This document shows, in pieces, positions 8,488 through 14,583 of a stretch of DNA of 38,961 nt; position 1 is the first letter of the stretch, and each line of letters starts with the position of its first letter. The notes beneath the pieces are model-generated. The model saw only the letters and a list, made by a program, of their open reading frames with translations. It had not been told where the DNA came from and searched no databases. Source of the stretch: a virus (Duplodnaviria; Caudoviricetes); the IMG/VR virus record IMGVR_UViG_3300038556_000008, positions 1 to 38,961 of that record. The stretch is one strand, 5' to 3'. The position numbers and the translations under genes were made by a program.

Positions 8488-8979
8488 TCAGCGTTGGATG
8501 GCACTCACTACTCCGGCGCGAGTGTAGACGTAGCGAATCTCTCTACCTGTGGGATACACAAATTGCTTGGTATCGCCTGCAGTGGTTTTCGTTTCATTCA
8601 CTGTGTCAGGCTGCACCAAAAGTCCCCAAGTTGTACAGTTTCTAAAGTTGTACTCCGTCATGCCTATAGACGGATATGTTTGCATAGCTCCTCCGCACTT
8701 TGCTTGCGCCTCTGCTAGGAGCTCATCATCGGTCTTAAAGCCAGTTGCCTTTTTCTTAACCTCCCAGGCCTTAATTTCGGCATCCACTTTGGCCTTGCGT
8801 TGCTCTTGCTGCTGGACTGCTACGCGATCCCTCCGAGCTGCGTCTTCGGCGCCGGTTGACCCTCCTTGGCAGGGAGCATCCTGGAACGCGATTTGTCCGC
8901 TCGGGGTGGTGCACTTGTTCACCGCCCAAGTTGGACTGATGGCGAAGGCAAGCAAAAAAATAGCAATATGACTATTCAT
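8488..8979 (-). CDS. Exported accessory protein with DUF4124-like N-terminal motif
   Basis: Signal peptide MNSHIAIFLLAFAISPTWA, then VNKCTTPSGQIAFQDAPC. AT-richer than the flanks; third gene of the repressor operon. Confidence 0.72.
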   Translation of the reverse strand: MNSHIAIFLLAFAISPTWAVNKCTTPSGQIAFQDAPCQGGSTGAEDAARRDRVAVQQQEQRKAKVDAEIKAWEVKKKATGFKTDDELLAEAQAKCGGAMQTYPSIGMTEYNFRNCTTWGLLVQPDTVNETKTTAGDTKQFVYPTGREIRYVYTRAGVVSAIQR

Positions 8980-9425
8980 GCGCTCTCCTTTGATTCATTG
9001 TTTAAAACTACTTCGACGTAGCAGCGAAGTCGGTGTACCTGGTTTGGGGCCAGTTCAATGACGAGTGCTGTGTCAAACTCTCGACGCATGAAGTCAAGCA
9101 CTCGTATACGAGCTTGCTTGTCCAAGCATCTCATAAGGGCAAGAGCTTGCTTTTGAGCCTCAGTTACTTGACGACGTCCTTCATTCGCGGCTGGAGCACC
9201 CGCCGTGTCGCCGTAGAAATGTTGGTGCGTTACATGAGTGATATGCACGGCTCCTGCAGCTTGGCCAACCAGGACATTGCCGGAACCATCAAGCACCCGC
9301 TGCTGGAGCGAATCTTGTTCGCTGCCTTGGGGCTCAATTAAACCAGTCCGTAGCCCATTTTCAGCTTTAGTGCGGCACCAAGGTGCTGTCCAGATGCTGA
9401 ACCATTTCCACATTGCCTCCCACAT
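8976..9425 (-). CDS. Hypothetical protein co-oriented with the repressor (start uncertain)
   Basis: ORF whose stop overlaps the next start (ATGA). Gly/Val beta-type motif in the middle and a small helical C-terminal domain. Confidence 0.62.
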   Translation of the reverse strand: MWEAMWKWFSIWTAPWCRTKAENGLRTGLIEPQGSEQDSLQQRVLDGSGNVLVGQAAGAVHITHVTHQHFYGDTAGAPAANEGRRQVTEAQKQALALMRCLDKQARIRVLDFMRREFDTALVIELAPNQVHRLRCYVEVVLNNESKESA

Positions 9426-9465
9426 CGCTTGATCCCTCTACTGAAACCCACCCAGCTTTCGGTCG

Positions 9466-9927
9466 CTATTTTTTGACAGTCACCTTGCCACCAGCGTAGC
9501 CAACTTGGACAGTACCGTCCTTGTTGCTCACCTGGCTGATCGAACCTACCCGAGGCCCTGCTTCCAGAGTCTTGCGCGAGGCCTTGCTCTTTGAGGGCAC
9601 AACTGCGCCCGGTGTGAGCCCAGCGGCAAACAGGGCGGCTGTCTGGATGAGGTTTTGGCGAGCCTCGGGACCGCACAAACGGAAGCCATTTAGGAGCTTT
9701 TTCTCCTCCTCAGGTGCTTCGACGACGGCCTGCCGCTGGCCAGTCAGGACAAACAAGACGTCAACACCTTGCCCAGCCAGCGCGGCCAGTTGAAAGCCGT
9801 CAGGCGCGGTCCGGCCAGATTCCCAAGAAAAGAGGGTTTGCTTCGTCGTGCCAGCAAGGGCGGCGAAGCTGGGCTGGCTCATCCCCAAGCGGGTTCTTTC
9901 CTCTCGTAGCCGGTCTCCGATGGACAT
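9466..9927 (-). CDS. Prophage repressor, XRE/Cro-C1 HTH
   Basis: MSIGDRLREERTRLGMSQPSFAALAGTTKQTLFSWESGRTAPD; divergent from ner; AAGGA RBS. No S24 peptidase domain visible. Confidence 0.9.
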   Translation of the reverse strand: MSIGDRLREERTRLGMSQPSFAALAGTTKQTLFSWESGRTAPDGFQLAALAGQGVDVLFVLTGQRQAVVEAPEEEKKLLNGFRLCGPEARQNLIQTAALFAAGLTPGAVVPSKSKASRKTLEAGPRVGSISQVSNKDGTVQVGYAGGKVTVKK

Positions 9928-9947
9928 GAAAATTTTCCTTGAATTGC

Positions 9948-9976
9948 TTGCATGGGAAAGTTTTCTTTCCCATAAT
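9948..9976 (+). promoter_or_regulatory. Early promoter overlapped by a perfect palindromic operator
   Basis: TTGCAT (9948-9953), 17-bp spacer, CATAAT (9971-9976). Inverted repeat ATGGGAAAG-TTTT-CTTTCCCAT at 9952-9973. Confidence 0.8.
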
Positions 9977-10037
9977 GGAGTCCACACAGCAATTCGCTGT
10001 TGTCACCTAAACATGTTGAGTCAAAGGGTAACAGACG

Positions 10038-10292
10038 ATGCACCCCGAACAAATCAAAGCGGCTATCCGTATGCGCGGAACAACGCCCACGGCGATAGCG
10101 GAGGAACTGAAAGTCTCTCGGTCCATGGTTTCCCATGTGATCAACGGACATGCAAAGTCCGAGCGAATTGCCAAGCGCATAGCCGAAGTCATTGGCGACA
10201 CAGTTGAGGCGATTTGGCCTGCCAATGAGAACAAGCCTGCGTTGCGTCGTATCCGTGTGAATCACCCCGACAGCGCGAGGGCGCCGGCGTGA
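10038..10292 (+). CDS. ner: Ner/Cro-like HTH regulator
   Basis: MHPEQIKAAIRMRGTT...IAEEL...IAEVIG...IWP Ner pattern; first early gene. Confidence 0.85.
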   Translation: MHPEQIKAAIRMRGTTPTAIAEELKVSRSMVSHVINGHAKSERIAKRIAEVIGDTVEAIWPANENKPALRRIRVNHPDSARAPA

Positions 10293-11590: not shown

Positions 11591-13342
11591 ATGAGCCCCG
11601 CCCTGATTGAAGCACTGCTGGAGGTGCATGCCCGCGCCCAGGCGGCAGGCCATGGCGGCAAGGAAGCCGTCTATGCATCGGCCTGCCAACTCCTGGGCCT
11701 GTCTCGCGCCACGCTCATGCGCCGCCTCAAGGAGGTCTCCGTGAAACCCGAACGCAAGCGCCGCACCGACGCCGGCAAGATGAGCCTGGGCCTGGCCGAT
11801 GCACAGCGGCTGTCGGCCCAGATGATGGAAGGCTACCGCGCCAACGACAAGAGCATCCAGGCGATGCGCCTGTCGCTGCAGCAGCTGCGCGCCGAAAACC
11901 CGCTGTTCGCCAGCGTGGTGGACCCAGAAACTGGAGAAACCCGCCAGCTGTCTGAAAGCGCCTGCGCACGGGCGCTGCGCGAGTACGCGCTGCACCCTGA
12001 GCAGTTGCGCCGCCCCGAGCCCGTGCAACAGCTCGCCAGCGACCACCCGAACGACGTCTGGCAGTTGGACTTCTCGATCAGCACGCTGTATTACGTCCCG
12101 GGCCAGGGCCAGAGTGGCGTTCAGGACATGGCGCCCAGCGAGTTCTATAAGAACAAGCCTGAGAACTTCGAGAAGATCAAGCGCCAGCGCCTGCTGCGTG
12201 GCGCCATCACCGACCACACCAGCGGCAGCATCTTTGTGCTCTACCTGGAGGGCGGCGAATCCATGGCGAACATGGCCGAGTTGCTGCTGGCTGCCATCGC
12301 CCAACGACCGGATCAGCAGATGTACGGCGTGCCCTTCCACCTGATGGTGGACCCGGGCAGCGGCGCTGGCGGCGCCTTCCGCAACCTGCTGCGCCGCCTG
12401 CAGGTCAAGCTGATCGTGAACGAGGCCGGCAACCCGCGCGCCAAGGGCCAGGTCGAGAACGCGCACAACATCATCGAGACATCTTTCGAGAGCGGTTTCA
12501 AGTTCACGCATGTCCCCGACATTGCCTGGATCAACGAAAAGGCAATGCAGTGGATGCGCTGGTACAACAGCACGCGCATGCACCGCCGCCATGGTCTGAC
12601 GCGCTGGGCCAAGTGGATGGAGATCACCCAGGCGCAGCTGCGGCTGGTGGACGCGGCGCTGGCACGCCAGCTCCTCACGCATTCGCCAGAGACGCCCAAG
12701 GTGCAGCCGAACCTGACCGTGCGCTTTGCGGGCCGCGAGTGGGATCTGCGCGACGTGCCGGGCGTGCTGATCGGCGAGCGCACCGAGATCACCTACAACC
12801 CCTTCGATGCCGCTGTGGCCTATGTGGTCCAGCACGGCGCCGATGGGCAGGAGCTGCTGATCCCGGTGCCCCAGGTCAAGGAAGGCCTGCACGGGTTCCG
12901 GGAGGGCGCTGCCCACATCGGGCGCGAACACAAGGCGCTGCCCGATACCGTGGCACTCACCAACCGCAAGGCTGTGGAGCGCCTGGCAACGGGCACGGAC
13001 ACCGACGAGGCAGCAGCGGCGGCGCGCAAGGCCAAGGCGCTGCCTTTCGGCGGCAAGCATGACCCCTATAAGCACCATGAGGAGCTGCCGGCCGCGACCA
13101 TGCTGCCGCGCCGGGGCACCGAGCTGGAGCCCGCTACCCGTGTCGCCCATGCCGCGCCCGAGCTGCTCACGCACTTCGAGGTCGCCAAAGTCCTGGTGGC
13201 TCGCGGCATGCAGATGTCGCCCGAGCTCCTGGCCACGATCAAGCACCTGCACCCCGAGGGCGTACCAGACGACCAGGTCGTCGCCCTTGAGGCGCGGCTG
13301 AAGGTCCGCACAGGGCTGCGCGTCGTCGCAGGAGGCCAGTGA
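11591..13342 (+). CDS. DDE transposase (MuA analogue, B3/Tn552-type)
   Basis: HPNDVWQLD (D1), GVPFHLMVDPGS (D2), NPRAKGQVE (E) integrase-core motifs; N-terminal HTH. Confidence 0.93.
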   Translation: MSPALIEALLEVHARAQAAGHGGKEAVYASACQLLGLSRATLMRRLKEVSVKPERKRRTDAGKMSLGLADAQRLSAQMMEGYRANDKSIQAMRLSLQQLRAENPLFASVVDPETGETRQLSESACARALREYALHPEQLRRPEPVQQLASDHPNDVWQLDFSISTLYYVPGQGQSGVQDMAPSEFYKNKPENFEKIKRQRLLRGAITDHTSGSIFVLYLEGGESMANMAELLLAAIAQRPDQQMYGVPFHLMVDPGSGAGGAFRNLLRRLQVKLIVNEAGNPRAKGQVENAHNIIETSFESGFKFTHVPDIAWINEKAMQWMRWYNSTRMHRRHGLTRWAKWMEITQAQLRLVDAALARQLLTHSPETPKVQPNLTVRFAGREWDLRDVPGVLIGERTEITYNPFDAAVAYVVQHGADGQELLIPVPQVKEGLHGFREGAAHIGREHKALPDTVALTNRKAVERLATGTDTDEAAAAARKAKALPFGGKHDPYKHHEELPAATMLPRRGTELEPATRVAHAAPELLTHFEVAKVLVARGMQMSPELLATIKHLHPEGVPDDQVVALEARLKVRTGLRVVAGGQ

Positions 13343-14583
13343 TGCACGCCTATACCGCCGTCGCCGTCATGCCTCCCCTGCAGCCCGTGCTGGAGGCCCA
13401 CGAAATCACCCAGAGCGACCTCGCGCGCGCCGTGGGCCTGTCGGCTGCCGCTGCCTGCCGCCTGGTCAAGCACGGCCTGCTGCCCGCGCGCCGGGCCGGC
13501 GAGGTGCGCAAGCGCGCCCTGGACTACCTCAAGGGCCGTGGCGTGTCCATGGCCCATCTGCGCAACCTGGTGCTGCCGGTCCTGGCAGCACCTACCAAAG
13601 AAGTTGGCCCCGCCGAGTTGCACCTCGGCGAGGCCGTCCCCGAGAGCCCGAATGCCGACCAGGCAGAACCCAAGGAGGAAAGCATGCTACTACGCAACGA
13701 GACATTGACCACGGCGGCCAAGCGGCATTTCAAGCTGATGCGCAGCCCGTTCGTTGATGACATCCAGTCGCGGGACGACGTCTTCGCCAGCCAGCACGGC
13801 CGCTACGTGCGCGCCGCGCTGATGGACGCCGCGACAAATCACGGCTTCATCGCCGTGGTCGGCGAGAGCGGTAGCGGCAAGTCCACGCTGCGCGAAGACC
13901 TGGAAGAGCGCATCCGGGAGGAGCGCAAGCCCATCATCGTCATCAAGCCCTACGTGCTTGCGATGGAGCCCAACGACACACGCGGCAAGGCGATGAAAGC
14001 CGGCCAGATCGCGGAGAGCATCGCGCGCACTCTGGCACCCAACATCCAGCTCAAGAGCAGCCCCGATGCCCGGTATCGCCAAGTCCATGATCTGCTCAAG
14101 GCCAGCCGGGCAGCGGGCTATTCGCACCTGCTCATGATCGAGGAGGCTCACCGCATGCCCATGCCGACCTTGAAGCACCTGAAGAACTTCATGGAGCTCA
14201 AAGACGGCCTGCGCCGCCTCCTGGGCGTGTGCCTGGTCGGCCAGCCCGAGCTGCAGCTGCTGCTGTCCGAGCAGAACCCGGAAGTGCGCGAGATCGTCCA
14301 GCGCTGCGAGCAGATCGTCATGGAGCCGCTGGACAACGACCTGGAGGGCTACCTCACGCACAAGCTGGATCGCGCTGGCGCACGCCTGACCGACCTCTTC
14401 GAGGCCGATGCCCTGGACGCCATCCGCGCCCGCCTGATCAGCATGCCGCGCGGCGGCAGGGCCAGCGATGCCGTGAGCATGTGCTACCCCCTGGTGGTCA
14501 ACAACCTGGTCTGCCGCGCCCTCAACGCTGCAGCGGTTGTGGGCTTTCCCAAAGTCGATGCCCAGGTCATCGCGGGGTGCTGA
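13339..14583 (+). CDS. Transposition AAA+ ATPase (MuB analogue, ExeA-like) with N-terminal HTH
   Basis: Walker A GESGSGKS, Walker B LLMIEEAH, LVGQPEL, REIVQRC. N-terminal ITQSDLARAVGLS HTH. Confidence 0.92.
   Translation: MMHAYTAVAVMPPLQPVLEAHEITQSDLARAVGLSAAAACRLVKHGLLPARRAGEVRKRALDYLKGRGVSMAHLRNLVLPVLAAPTKEVGPAELHLGEAVPESPNADQAEPKEESMLLRNETLTTAAKRHFKLMRSPFVDDIQSRDDVFASQHGRYVRAALMDAATNHGFIAVVGESGSGKSTLREDLEERIREERKPIIVIKPYVLAMEPNDTRGKAMKAGQIAESIARTLAPNIQLKSSPDARYRQVHDLLKASRAAGYSHLLMIEEAHRMPMPTLKHLKNFMELKDGLRRLLGVCLVGQPELQLLLSEQNPEVREIVQRCEQIVMEPLDNDLEGYLTHKLDRAGARLTDLFEADALDAIRARLISMPRGGRASDAVSMCYPLVVNNLVCRALNAAAVVGFPKVDAQVIAGC

What the first reader, a model, noticed from the sequence alone, without database searches (positions are those of the whole stretch)
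9240..9537. Repressor C-terminus and the adjacent gene share a RHIM/amyloid-like motif: possible polymerisation-based lysogeny switch
Seen: the repressor ends in SQVSNKDGTVQVGYAGGKVTV (9475-9537) after a flexible linker. The next protein contains QRVLDGSGNVLVGQAAGAVHI (9240-9302). They align ungapped with 8/21 identities (V-x-[ND]-x-x-G-x-V-x-V-G-x-A-x-G-x-V-x-[VI]). The repressor has no autocleavage peptidase domain. Known: VQVG is the RHIM core tetrad, and fungal and bacterial amyloid signalling uses matching short motifs in adjacent gene pairs. Inference: the two proteins co-assemble through this motif, letting the partner (small helical C-terminal domain, possibly antirepressor-like) sequester or stabilise the repressor in an SOS-independent switch.
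Basis: partly seen in the sequence, partly recalled or inferred. Interest (0 to 1): 0.78.

Follow-up and report, generated by a model that had tools for sequence, protein, structure and literature searches.

The report
Repressor tail mirrors neighbour's peptide tag
The repressor of this Mu-like prophage ends in a short glycine/valine-rich peptide that recurs near the start of the next gene's protein, and the two copies appear, vanish and change together across related phages, so the neighbour likely grips the repressor through an amyloid-like stack and would switch the dormant virus without the usual self-cleavage.

Summary
Observation confirmed. The partner's peptide is the best match to the repressor motif in all six frames of the window. 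Across 107 repressor clusters, 57 of 74 with such a tail have a motif-bearing downstream region, against 3 of 33 without. Own pairs match better than swapped pairs (0 of 20,000 permutations), also within motif classes, and sister repressors switch class together with their partners. Codons do not point to DNA duplication, and the partner motif is under purifying selection.

Corrections: this is not RHIM/BASS3 (partner core VLVG, no NLR or death effector), and the window's pair is weaker than average. The partner's three-helix bundle is half of a Flk_N/ORF6C-like domain; relatives carry two bundles plus a membrane anchor.

Best reading (about 0.55): homotypic beta-stack co-assembly lets a likely membrane-tethered sensor capture a non-cleavable repressor. 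Ten paper searches found no description. The scan noted this system before on other DNA, mostly P2-like prophages with membrane partners. This window is the Mu/B3-like, single-bundle branch without a transmembrane segment.

The parts
9466..9927 (-). Immunity repressor candidate, 153 aa (P0001): XRE HTH (aa 1-63), helical hairpin (aa 73-101), flexible linker, motif tail; no S24 peptidase
   Evidence: Pfam HTH_3 E 3e-8; AF2 model; divergent from ner as in B3-like phages
9475..9537 (-). Repressor tail motif (aa 131-151), VQVG class, followed by KK-stop
   Evidence: tail 23 of 31 identical to L002 while the HTH is 23 of 63
8976..9425 (-). Partner gene, 149 aa (P0002), 40 nt downstream of the repressor, same strand
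   Evidence: profile search finds 246 relatives at E<=0.001 among 50%-identity representatives
9378..9425 (-). Partner Trp-rich N-terminal helix (aa 1-16), candidate membrane tether
   Evidence: helix 2-12 at low confidence; 15 of 16 residues kept in L002; family moment above shuffles in 103 of 130, but not for P0002 itself (0.40 vs 0.39)
9213..9305 (-). Partner motif (aa 41-71): the 21-aa match (9240-9302) plus a His/Thr/Val-rich extension
   Evidence: against L002 17 synonymous and 3 amino-acid-changing codons of 31
8979..9167 (-). Partner three-helix bundle (aa 87-149), homologous to the second bundle of Flk_N-like prophage proteins
   Evidence: pLDDT above 90; HHalign P 88.8, E 2.4e-6
8488..8979 (-). 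Third gene of the run (163 aa, signal-peptide-like start, weak DUF4124), start overlapping the partner's stop; variable cargo
   Evidence: E 0.012, below cut-off; also follows a tail-less repressor in L018
9952..9973 (.). Perfect 9-bp inverted repeat with 4-nt spacer between repressor and ner; candidate operator (inferred)
10038..10292 (+). ner-like HTH, first gene of the divergent lytic operon (transposase A 11591-13342, B 13339-14583)
   Evidence: Pfam HTH_35 E 1e-11; rve and AAA_22 hits

Best explanation
The prophage repressor and the next gene's protein carry matched, co-varying 20-30-residue Gly/Asn/Gln/Val motifs that likely co-stack as an amyloid-like beta assembly, by which the partner, a likely membrane-tethered sensor, would pull the non-cleavable repressor off its operator and start lytic growth. 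Shown: matched motifs, co-occurrence, co-variation, purifying selection, no peptidase domain, three-helix bundle related to Flk_N-type prophage proteins. Inferred: co-transcription in the lysogen; membrane tethering by the Trp-rich helix (relatives use a C-terminal anchor instead); binding of the bundle to a host or phage protein, which clusters the partner and nucleates the stack; and the direction. My odds: physical co-assembly through the motif about 0.75; cross-beta rather than a discrete dimer about 0.55; if co-assembly holds, inactivation is favoured over stabilisation about 2 to 1.
For: Co-occurrence: 57 of 74 tailed against 3 of 33 tail-less clusters have a downstream motif recognised by a non-cognate tail; repressor-seeded loci only 43 of 58 against 3 of 33, and without the AGRD-seeded scan 18 of 33 against 0 of 28. 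Partner-seeded loci: 53 of 68 had a usable HTH gene; 30 of their 31 distinct repressors were called tailed and the 31st has an AGRD tail. Co-variation: cognate mean 45.3 against 27.5 non-cognate, 0 of 20,000 permutations; within VQVG (z 10), AGRD (z 5.7) and other (z 5.7) classes too. Sister repressors L005 (AGRD/AGRD) and L062 (VQVG/VQVG) have SH-aLRT 99. The same residue tends to occur at the same position in both partners, e.g. core N/N in L130 and L149, H/H in L164, as in-register stacking would favour. Composition against repressor cores: Q 2.2, N 3.0, G 2.9, V 2.5, I 1.5, P 0.23, L 0.12, the bias reported for BASS motifs (10.1101/2020.01.06.895854, section 9). Both motifs are unstructured in monomer models. 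Tail at the C-terminus and partner motif before its domain matches the effector/receptor layout of Bab/Agp. In B3-like Fc02 the gene after repc is transcribed in the lysogen (PMC9936078 section 3.2). Of 66 extracted partners 34 have a TM-like segment; 23 of the 32 without one have a Trp-containing long leader, against 3 of the 34 with one.
Against: No binding or fibril data. The window's own pair is weak (18 of 106 non-cognate regions score higher) and lacks the core Gln. K is not depleted (1.11), unlike BASS. Exceptions exist: 17 of 74 tailed clusters have no downstream motif at the cut; L031 and L077 show a tail and no partner within 1.1 kb; in L181 the bundle protein has a VQVG motif while the repressor tail is of another class and matches a different neighbour. 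The module is dispensable: tail-less, partner-less repressors occur, e.g. cultured Ps56. Clusters are related and tail plus partner head lie within about 250 nt, so they can be swapped as one block; p-values are inflated. The tree is a quick one with 55 of 104 branches open. P0002's own N-terminus is not more amphipathic than its shuffles. No ligand for the bundle is shown.
Confidence: 0.55

Rival explanations
1. Discrete mimicry without a polymer: the tail is a short beta self-association element of the repressor, and the partner copies it to form a small stoichiometric heterocomplex that blocks or tethers repressor oligomers.
For: Predicts the same co-occurrence and same-residue co-variation. 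Weakly matched pairs such as this window's persist under selection.
Against: Composition and Gly spacing are those of beta-arch motifs. Some partners carry two copies (L084) and some repressors two classes in tandem (P0052, P0081, P0112), as pseudo-repeat amyloid motifs do.
Confidence: 0.2
2. Reverse flow, a defence or exclusion module: repressor clustering (for example on replicating phage DNA) nucleates the partner, whose N-terminal helix or membrane anchor then damages the membrane or blocks superinfection.
For: Known bacterial amyloid pairs are abortive-infection systems, and Bab has an N-terminal hydrophobic helix. The slot after the repressor is lysogen-expressed cargo in Fc02. Most partners look membrane-bound.
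Against: No PADLOC hit for P0002. In known pairs the C-terminal motif sits on the effector, which here is the repressor. No Bell/HeLo or other death domain among the 15 partners scanned in Pfam.
Confidence: 0.15
3. Both motifs bind a third factor such as a host protease adaptor, and the partner acts as a decoy that sets repressor half-life (as recalled for the ClpXP-read tail of Mu repressor).
For: Free, unstructured C-terminal tail. The Mu precedent is recalled; the search found no paper to read on it.
Against: Sister repressors use different motif classes, which a fixed host receptor would not allow, and fine cognate-specific co-variation is seen within a class.
Confidence: 0.07
4. Relic of local duplication or gene conversion with no function.
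For: The two motifs lie about 170 nt apart. Third-base identity is slightly higher in cognate pairs (33% against 28%, Fisher p 0.06).
Against: Third bases at identical four-fold residues agree in only 97 of 290, near the 29% expected. The partner motif has 17 synonymous against 3 amino-acid-changing codons while the adjacent linker has 2 against 19.
Confidence: 0.03

Closest known systems
Amyloid-signalling gene pairs: BASS1-10 in Bell/NLR pairs (bioRxiv 10.1101/2020.01.06.895854; passages and section 9 read) and E. coli prophage Bab/Agp, BASS11 (bioRxiv 10.1101/2024.11.07.622273; abstract and section 4 read)
   Same: Adjacent genes share a motif of about 25 aa rich in G/N/Q/V/I, C-terminal in one and N-proximal in the other; several motif families; pair-specific matching; occasional pseudo-repeats.
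   Different: The C-terminal carrier is a DNA-binding repressor, not a death effector; the other protein is a small bundle protein, not an NLR or TPR receptor; the likely output is gene regulation. The BASS paper has 0 occurrences of 'phage', 'repressor' or 'HTH'.
RHIM / PP / BASS3
   Same: The repressor has a V-Q-V-G tetrad; phi-Q-phi-G is the commonest core in this branch.
   Different: The stated signature G-phi-Q-phi-G is not met: T-V-Q-V-G and N-V-L-V-G. No Pfam RHIM hit at E<=1. Homologous pairs swap to AGRD, FxGxVG and SLF-type motifs.
Flk (Fluke/RflH) and Flk-like prophage proteins (phrog_5825, PF27202)
   Same: The bundle is homologous to the second bundle of prophage partners that hit Flk residues 23-153 (15 of 16, best E 1.7e-19). 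Flk is a cytoplasmic, tail-anchored protein that interacts with FlhA in two-hybrid assays (PMC13344023 passages).
   Different: P0002 has one bundle, no C-terminal anchor and no Flk hit of its own; 3 of 130 family members hit Flk, best E 3.4e-4. No flagellar role is implied.
C-terminal three-helix domains of phage annealases (lambda Redbeta CTD, 80alpha Sak entry) and ORF6C
   Same: Top structural rows: 8qe9 Z 6.7, rmsd 2.3, 58 aligned; Redbeta CTD Z 6.2 and 6.1; Atlas Rad52-family TM 0.74. [quoted passage not shown]
   Different: Z under 8 is common for helical bundles; no profile match of the family to Redbeta CTD (E 0.65), only a weak one for the two-bundle relatives (E 0.006).
Small-protein antirepressor modules (VP882 Qtip, TF-smORF; PMC10432266 passages and listing)
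   Same: Control of non-cleavable repressors by a small protein, apart from the DNA-damage cue.
   Different: Those use a transcription factor plus a counter-oriented small ORF; here the partner is co-oriented behind the repressor and shares a mirrored motif. That Qtip sequesters repressor into foci is recalled, not read here.

Membership tests
Amyloid-signalling motif pair (general) | Short shared motif in products of neighbouring genes | tested here: met
Amyloid-signalling motif pair (general) | Enriched in Q, N, G, V, I; depleted in K, P, L | tested here: met
   7 of 8 residues go the stated way; K does not (1.11)
Amyloid-signalling motif pair (general) | Pair-specific co-variation | tested here: met
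   0 of 20,000 permutations overall and within classes; rows are related
Amyloid-signalling motif pair (general) | Cross-beta fibrils and cross-seeding | not testable with these tools
BASS (Bell/NLR or Bab/Agp type) | NLR/TPR receptor plus cell-death effector domain | tested here: not met
   HTH repressor and a 149-aa bundle protein
RHIM / BASS3 | G-phi-Q-phi-G core in both partners | tested here: not met
   TVQVG and NVLVG; signature
Autocleavable CI/LexA repressors | C-terminal S24 peptidase domain | tested here: not met
Flk (NF007987) | Equivalog score, full Flk_N domain and C-terminal membrane anchor | tested here: not met
   no hit for P0002; 0 of 130 members with a TM-like window
Flk_N/ORF6C-like bundle superfamily | Profile homology of the three-helix unit | tested here: met
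   HHalign P 88.8, E 2.4e-6 to the two-bundle partners, which hit Flk; transitive, not direct
Redbeta-CTD-like SSB-tail binders | Same fold with a conserved binding pocket | tested here: inconclusive
   Z 6.1-6.7; profile E 0.65; pocket not examined
B3/Mu-like transposable prophage immunity region | Repressor divergent from ner, transposase A and B; lysis genes on the other side | tested here: met
   same layout in Ps56

The most novel reading that the evidence does not exclude
Temperate phages of several families use a prion-like, self-templating amyloid switch for the lysis-lysogeny decision: a membrane-tethered Flk/ORF6C-type sensor nucleates polymerisation of the repressor's tail, and interchangeable motif classes act as private channels that insulate co-resident prophages.
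Probability: 0.4. Interest if true: 0.92.

Novelty: new variant of a known kind. Interest (0 to 1): 0.74.

Why it matters
How prophages with non-cleavable repressors are induced is largely open. This module names a candidate partner and a 20-residue interface that a single mutation can test. If the assembly is cross-beta, amyloid signalling would extend from cell-death immunity to transcriptional control of a viral life-cycle decision. The pairing is widespread: Mu/B3-like prophages here, a cultured P2-like phage (KS5 gp11/gp12), and beta- and gammaproteobacterial hosts.

Tried and rejected
Pfam, PHROG, PADLOC and NCBIfam name no family for P0002. A PDB sequence search with the family profile had best E 0.1. 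Foldseek against PDB and BFVD gave nothing at E<=0.001. A search for longer, fused forms (350-2000 aa) found none among 7,985 candidates, which is weak evidence. The promoter and terminator scan found 0 sites. Expression: 24 runs listed, 4 laid, all contigs with patchy cover, uninformative. A genome-family search could not be centred and was dropped. The careful tree did not finish; the quick tree was used. The regex class labels on that tree are wrong for some rows (e.g. L059, L009, L042, L046), so I did not count changes on it. The composition-based tail classifier missed AGRD tails in L005, L245 and L250; I left them as 'tail-less', which works against the result. Of 266 loci, 248 had an HTH hit and 243 were usable; 23 were dropped before clustering. 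Rejected: chance, DNA duplication relic, membership in RHIM/BASS3, Flk orthology, and SSB sensing as a claim (kept only as a lead).

Full report
Context. The window is a near-complete virus record with the layout of a B3/Mu-like transposable prophage: a ner-like HTH gene at 10038, transposase A and B to the right, lysozyme and head genes to the left. The repressor candidate (9466-9927, minus strand) is followed by the partner (8976-9425) and a DUF4124-like gene. A 96% identical partner is labelled Delftia sp. by its source, so the host is likely a comamonad.

Observation. Both peptides are at the stated coordinates with 8 of 21 identities. The match is the best non-self hit of the repressor motif among 77,798 six-frame 21-mers of the window, and 0 of 300 partner shuffles reach it. 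The repressor has only HTH hits; its model is an HTH, a helical hairpin and an unstructured tail. The partner model is a low-confidence N-terminal helix, an unstructured motif region and a confident three-helix bundle at aa 87-149.

Conservation and co-occurrence. I gathered 266 loci (window included) with repressor and partner queries; 248 had an HTH hit, 243 were usable, giving 107 clusters at 70% identity. Tails were called from repressor composition alone (74 tailed, 33 not). Downstream DNA was scored in three frames without choosing an ORF. A motif recognised by a non-cognate tail was present downstream of 57 of 74 tailed and 3 of 33 tail-less repressors. With repressor-seeded loci only it was 43 of 58 against 3 of 33, and 18 of 33 against 0 of 28 without the AGRD-seeded scan. 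Conversely, 53 of 68 partner-seeded loci had a usable HTH gene; 30 of their 31 distinct repressors were called tailed, and the last has an AGRD tail that the classifier missed.

Co-variation. Cognate pairs score 45.3 on average against 27.5 for swapped pairs (0 of 20,000 permutations), and the excess persists within the VQVG, AGRD and remaining classes and at 60% clustering. At least four classes occur, each matched in its own pair: VQVG/IQIG (L003, L004), AGRD (L005, L110), QxFxGxVG or APVxGxVAG (L009, L112) and an SLF type (L040, L181). L005 and L062 are sisters at SH-aLRT 99 yet use different classes, each matched by its partner. In 27 VQVG-class pairs identical residues exceed permutation at 11 of 18 positions (p<0.05), including core N/N and H/H variants. 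These rows are related and the two motifs can move as one DNA block, so the p-values overstate independence.

Not a duplication relic. Third bases of identical four-fold residues agree in 97 of 290 cognate positions (33%), against 28% in non-cognate pairs and 29% expected. Against L002 the partner motif has 17 synonymous and 3 amino-acid-changing codons of 31, the preceding linker 2 and 19 of 24; the repressor tail keeps 23 of 31 residues while the HTH keeps 23 of 63. The tail-partner module stayed while DNA-binding specificity likely changed.

Results against. The window's pair is weak (score 30; 18 other downstream regions match its tail better) and its partner has VLVG where 74% of 130 relatives have Gln, although VLVG is kept in L002. 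17 of 74 tailed clusters lack a downstream motif at the cut. Some are false negatives (L064 with a weak match, L094 with the partner about 800 nt away); L031 and L077 show none; L181 has an unmatched bundle protein. Ps56 and others lack both parts.

What the partner is. The bundle aligns with the second bundle of two-bundle, tail-anchored partners (HHalign P 88.8, E 2.4e-6). Those hit phrog_5825, weakly antirepressor PHROGs and ORF6C, and Flk in 15 of 16 cases (Atlas PF27202). Three of 130 members of the window's family hit Flk, best E 3.4e-4. Structural neighbours include an 80alpha Sak complex entry and the lambda Redbeta CTD (Z 6.1-6.7), a level common for helical bundles. Flk interacts with FlhA (PMC13344023, passages) and the Redbeta CTD with Exo and SSB (PMC6393309, passages), so a protein-binding sensor role is a reasonable inference; the ligand is unknown. 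Of 66 extracted partners, 34 have a TM-like segment, and 23 of the other 32 have a Trp-containing leader instead, which suggests alternative membrane tethers. For P0002 itself the moment test was negative.

Mechanism. In described pairs the N-terminal motif is on the receptor and the C-terminal motif on the effector (Bab/Agp, abstract and section 4). By that layout the partner senses and the repressor is acted on. I infer that clustering of the partner nucleates a beta stack that captures repressor tails, frees the operator (candidate palindrome 9952-9973) and lets ner and transposase be expressed. In B3-like Fc02 the gene after repc is transcribed in the lysogen (PMC9936078, abstract and section 3.2), so the partner would be present in advance. 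None of these steps was tested physically.

Literature. Ten searches showed no paper on this pairing; RHIM + amyloid + phage repressor gave 0 papers. The BASS preprint (passages, section 9), a 2026 review (PMC13506858, passages) and a motif-detection paper (PMC12261475, passages) contain no 'phage' occurrences. PMC10432266 was seen as listing and passages. The library lacks most subscription journals, and the bioRxiv supplements that list BASS motif sets could not be seen; they may contain such proteins. Earlier notes of this scan report the same system on other DNA; none matched this partner by sequence.

Verdict. A real, selected, co-evolving motif pair that looks like amyloid signalling but is not a RHIM or BASS member. 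It is an undescribed variant attached to a lysogeny repressor. Interest 0.74.

Noticed in passing
P0052, P0081, P0112 (repressor homologues, no context): Repressor tails with two different motif classes in tandem; possible intermediates of class switching or repressors with two partners.
   Followed up: partly
L181:1001-1396 and the gene after it: Repressor tail of an SLF type matches a membrane protein; the next gene is a VQVG + bundle protein with no matching tail, an orphan partner.
   Followed up: partly
L266:2471-3756 (phage KS5 gp11 and gp12): A cultured P2-like phage has a matched pair (QxF-G-x-IGQ type), the partner annotated as membrane protein.
   Followed up: partly
L094, about 800 nt downstream of the repressor: The matched partner is not always the next gene.
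   Followed up: no
PHROG hits of P0001, L042 and L106 partners: phrog_17822 (267 positions) matches both the repressor HTH and the partners' first bundle, hinting at a fused HTH + bundle family.
   Followed up: no
L202, L223, L236, L251, L252, L256, L261, L264 partners: AGRD-class partners with paired CxxC motifs before membrane helices, a possible zinc or redox sensor type.
   Followed up: no
window 9952-9973 and 9941-9995: Perfect 9-bp palindrome with a second 8-bp inverted pair around it in the repressor-ner gap; candidate operators.
   Followed up: no
window 8488-9425: Partner and DUF4124-like gene are 52% G+C against 64% for the window; the third-gene slot varies among relatives.
   Followed up: no
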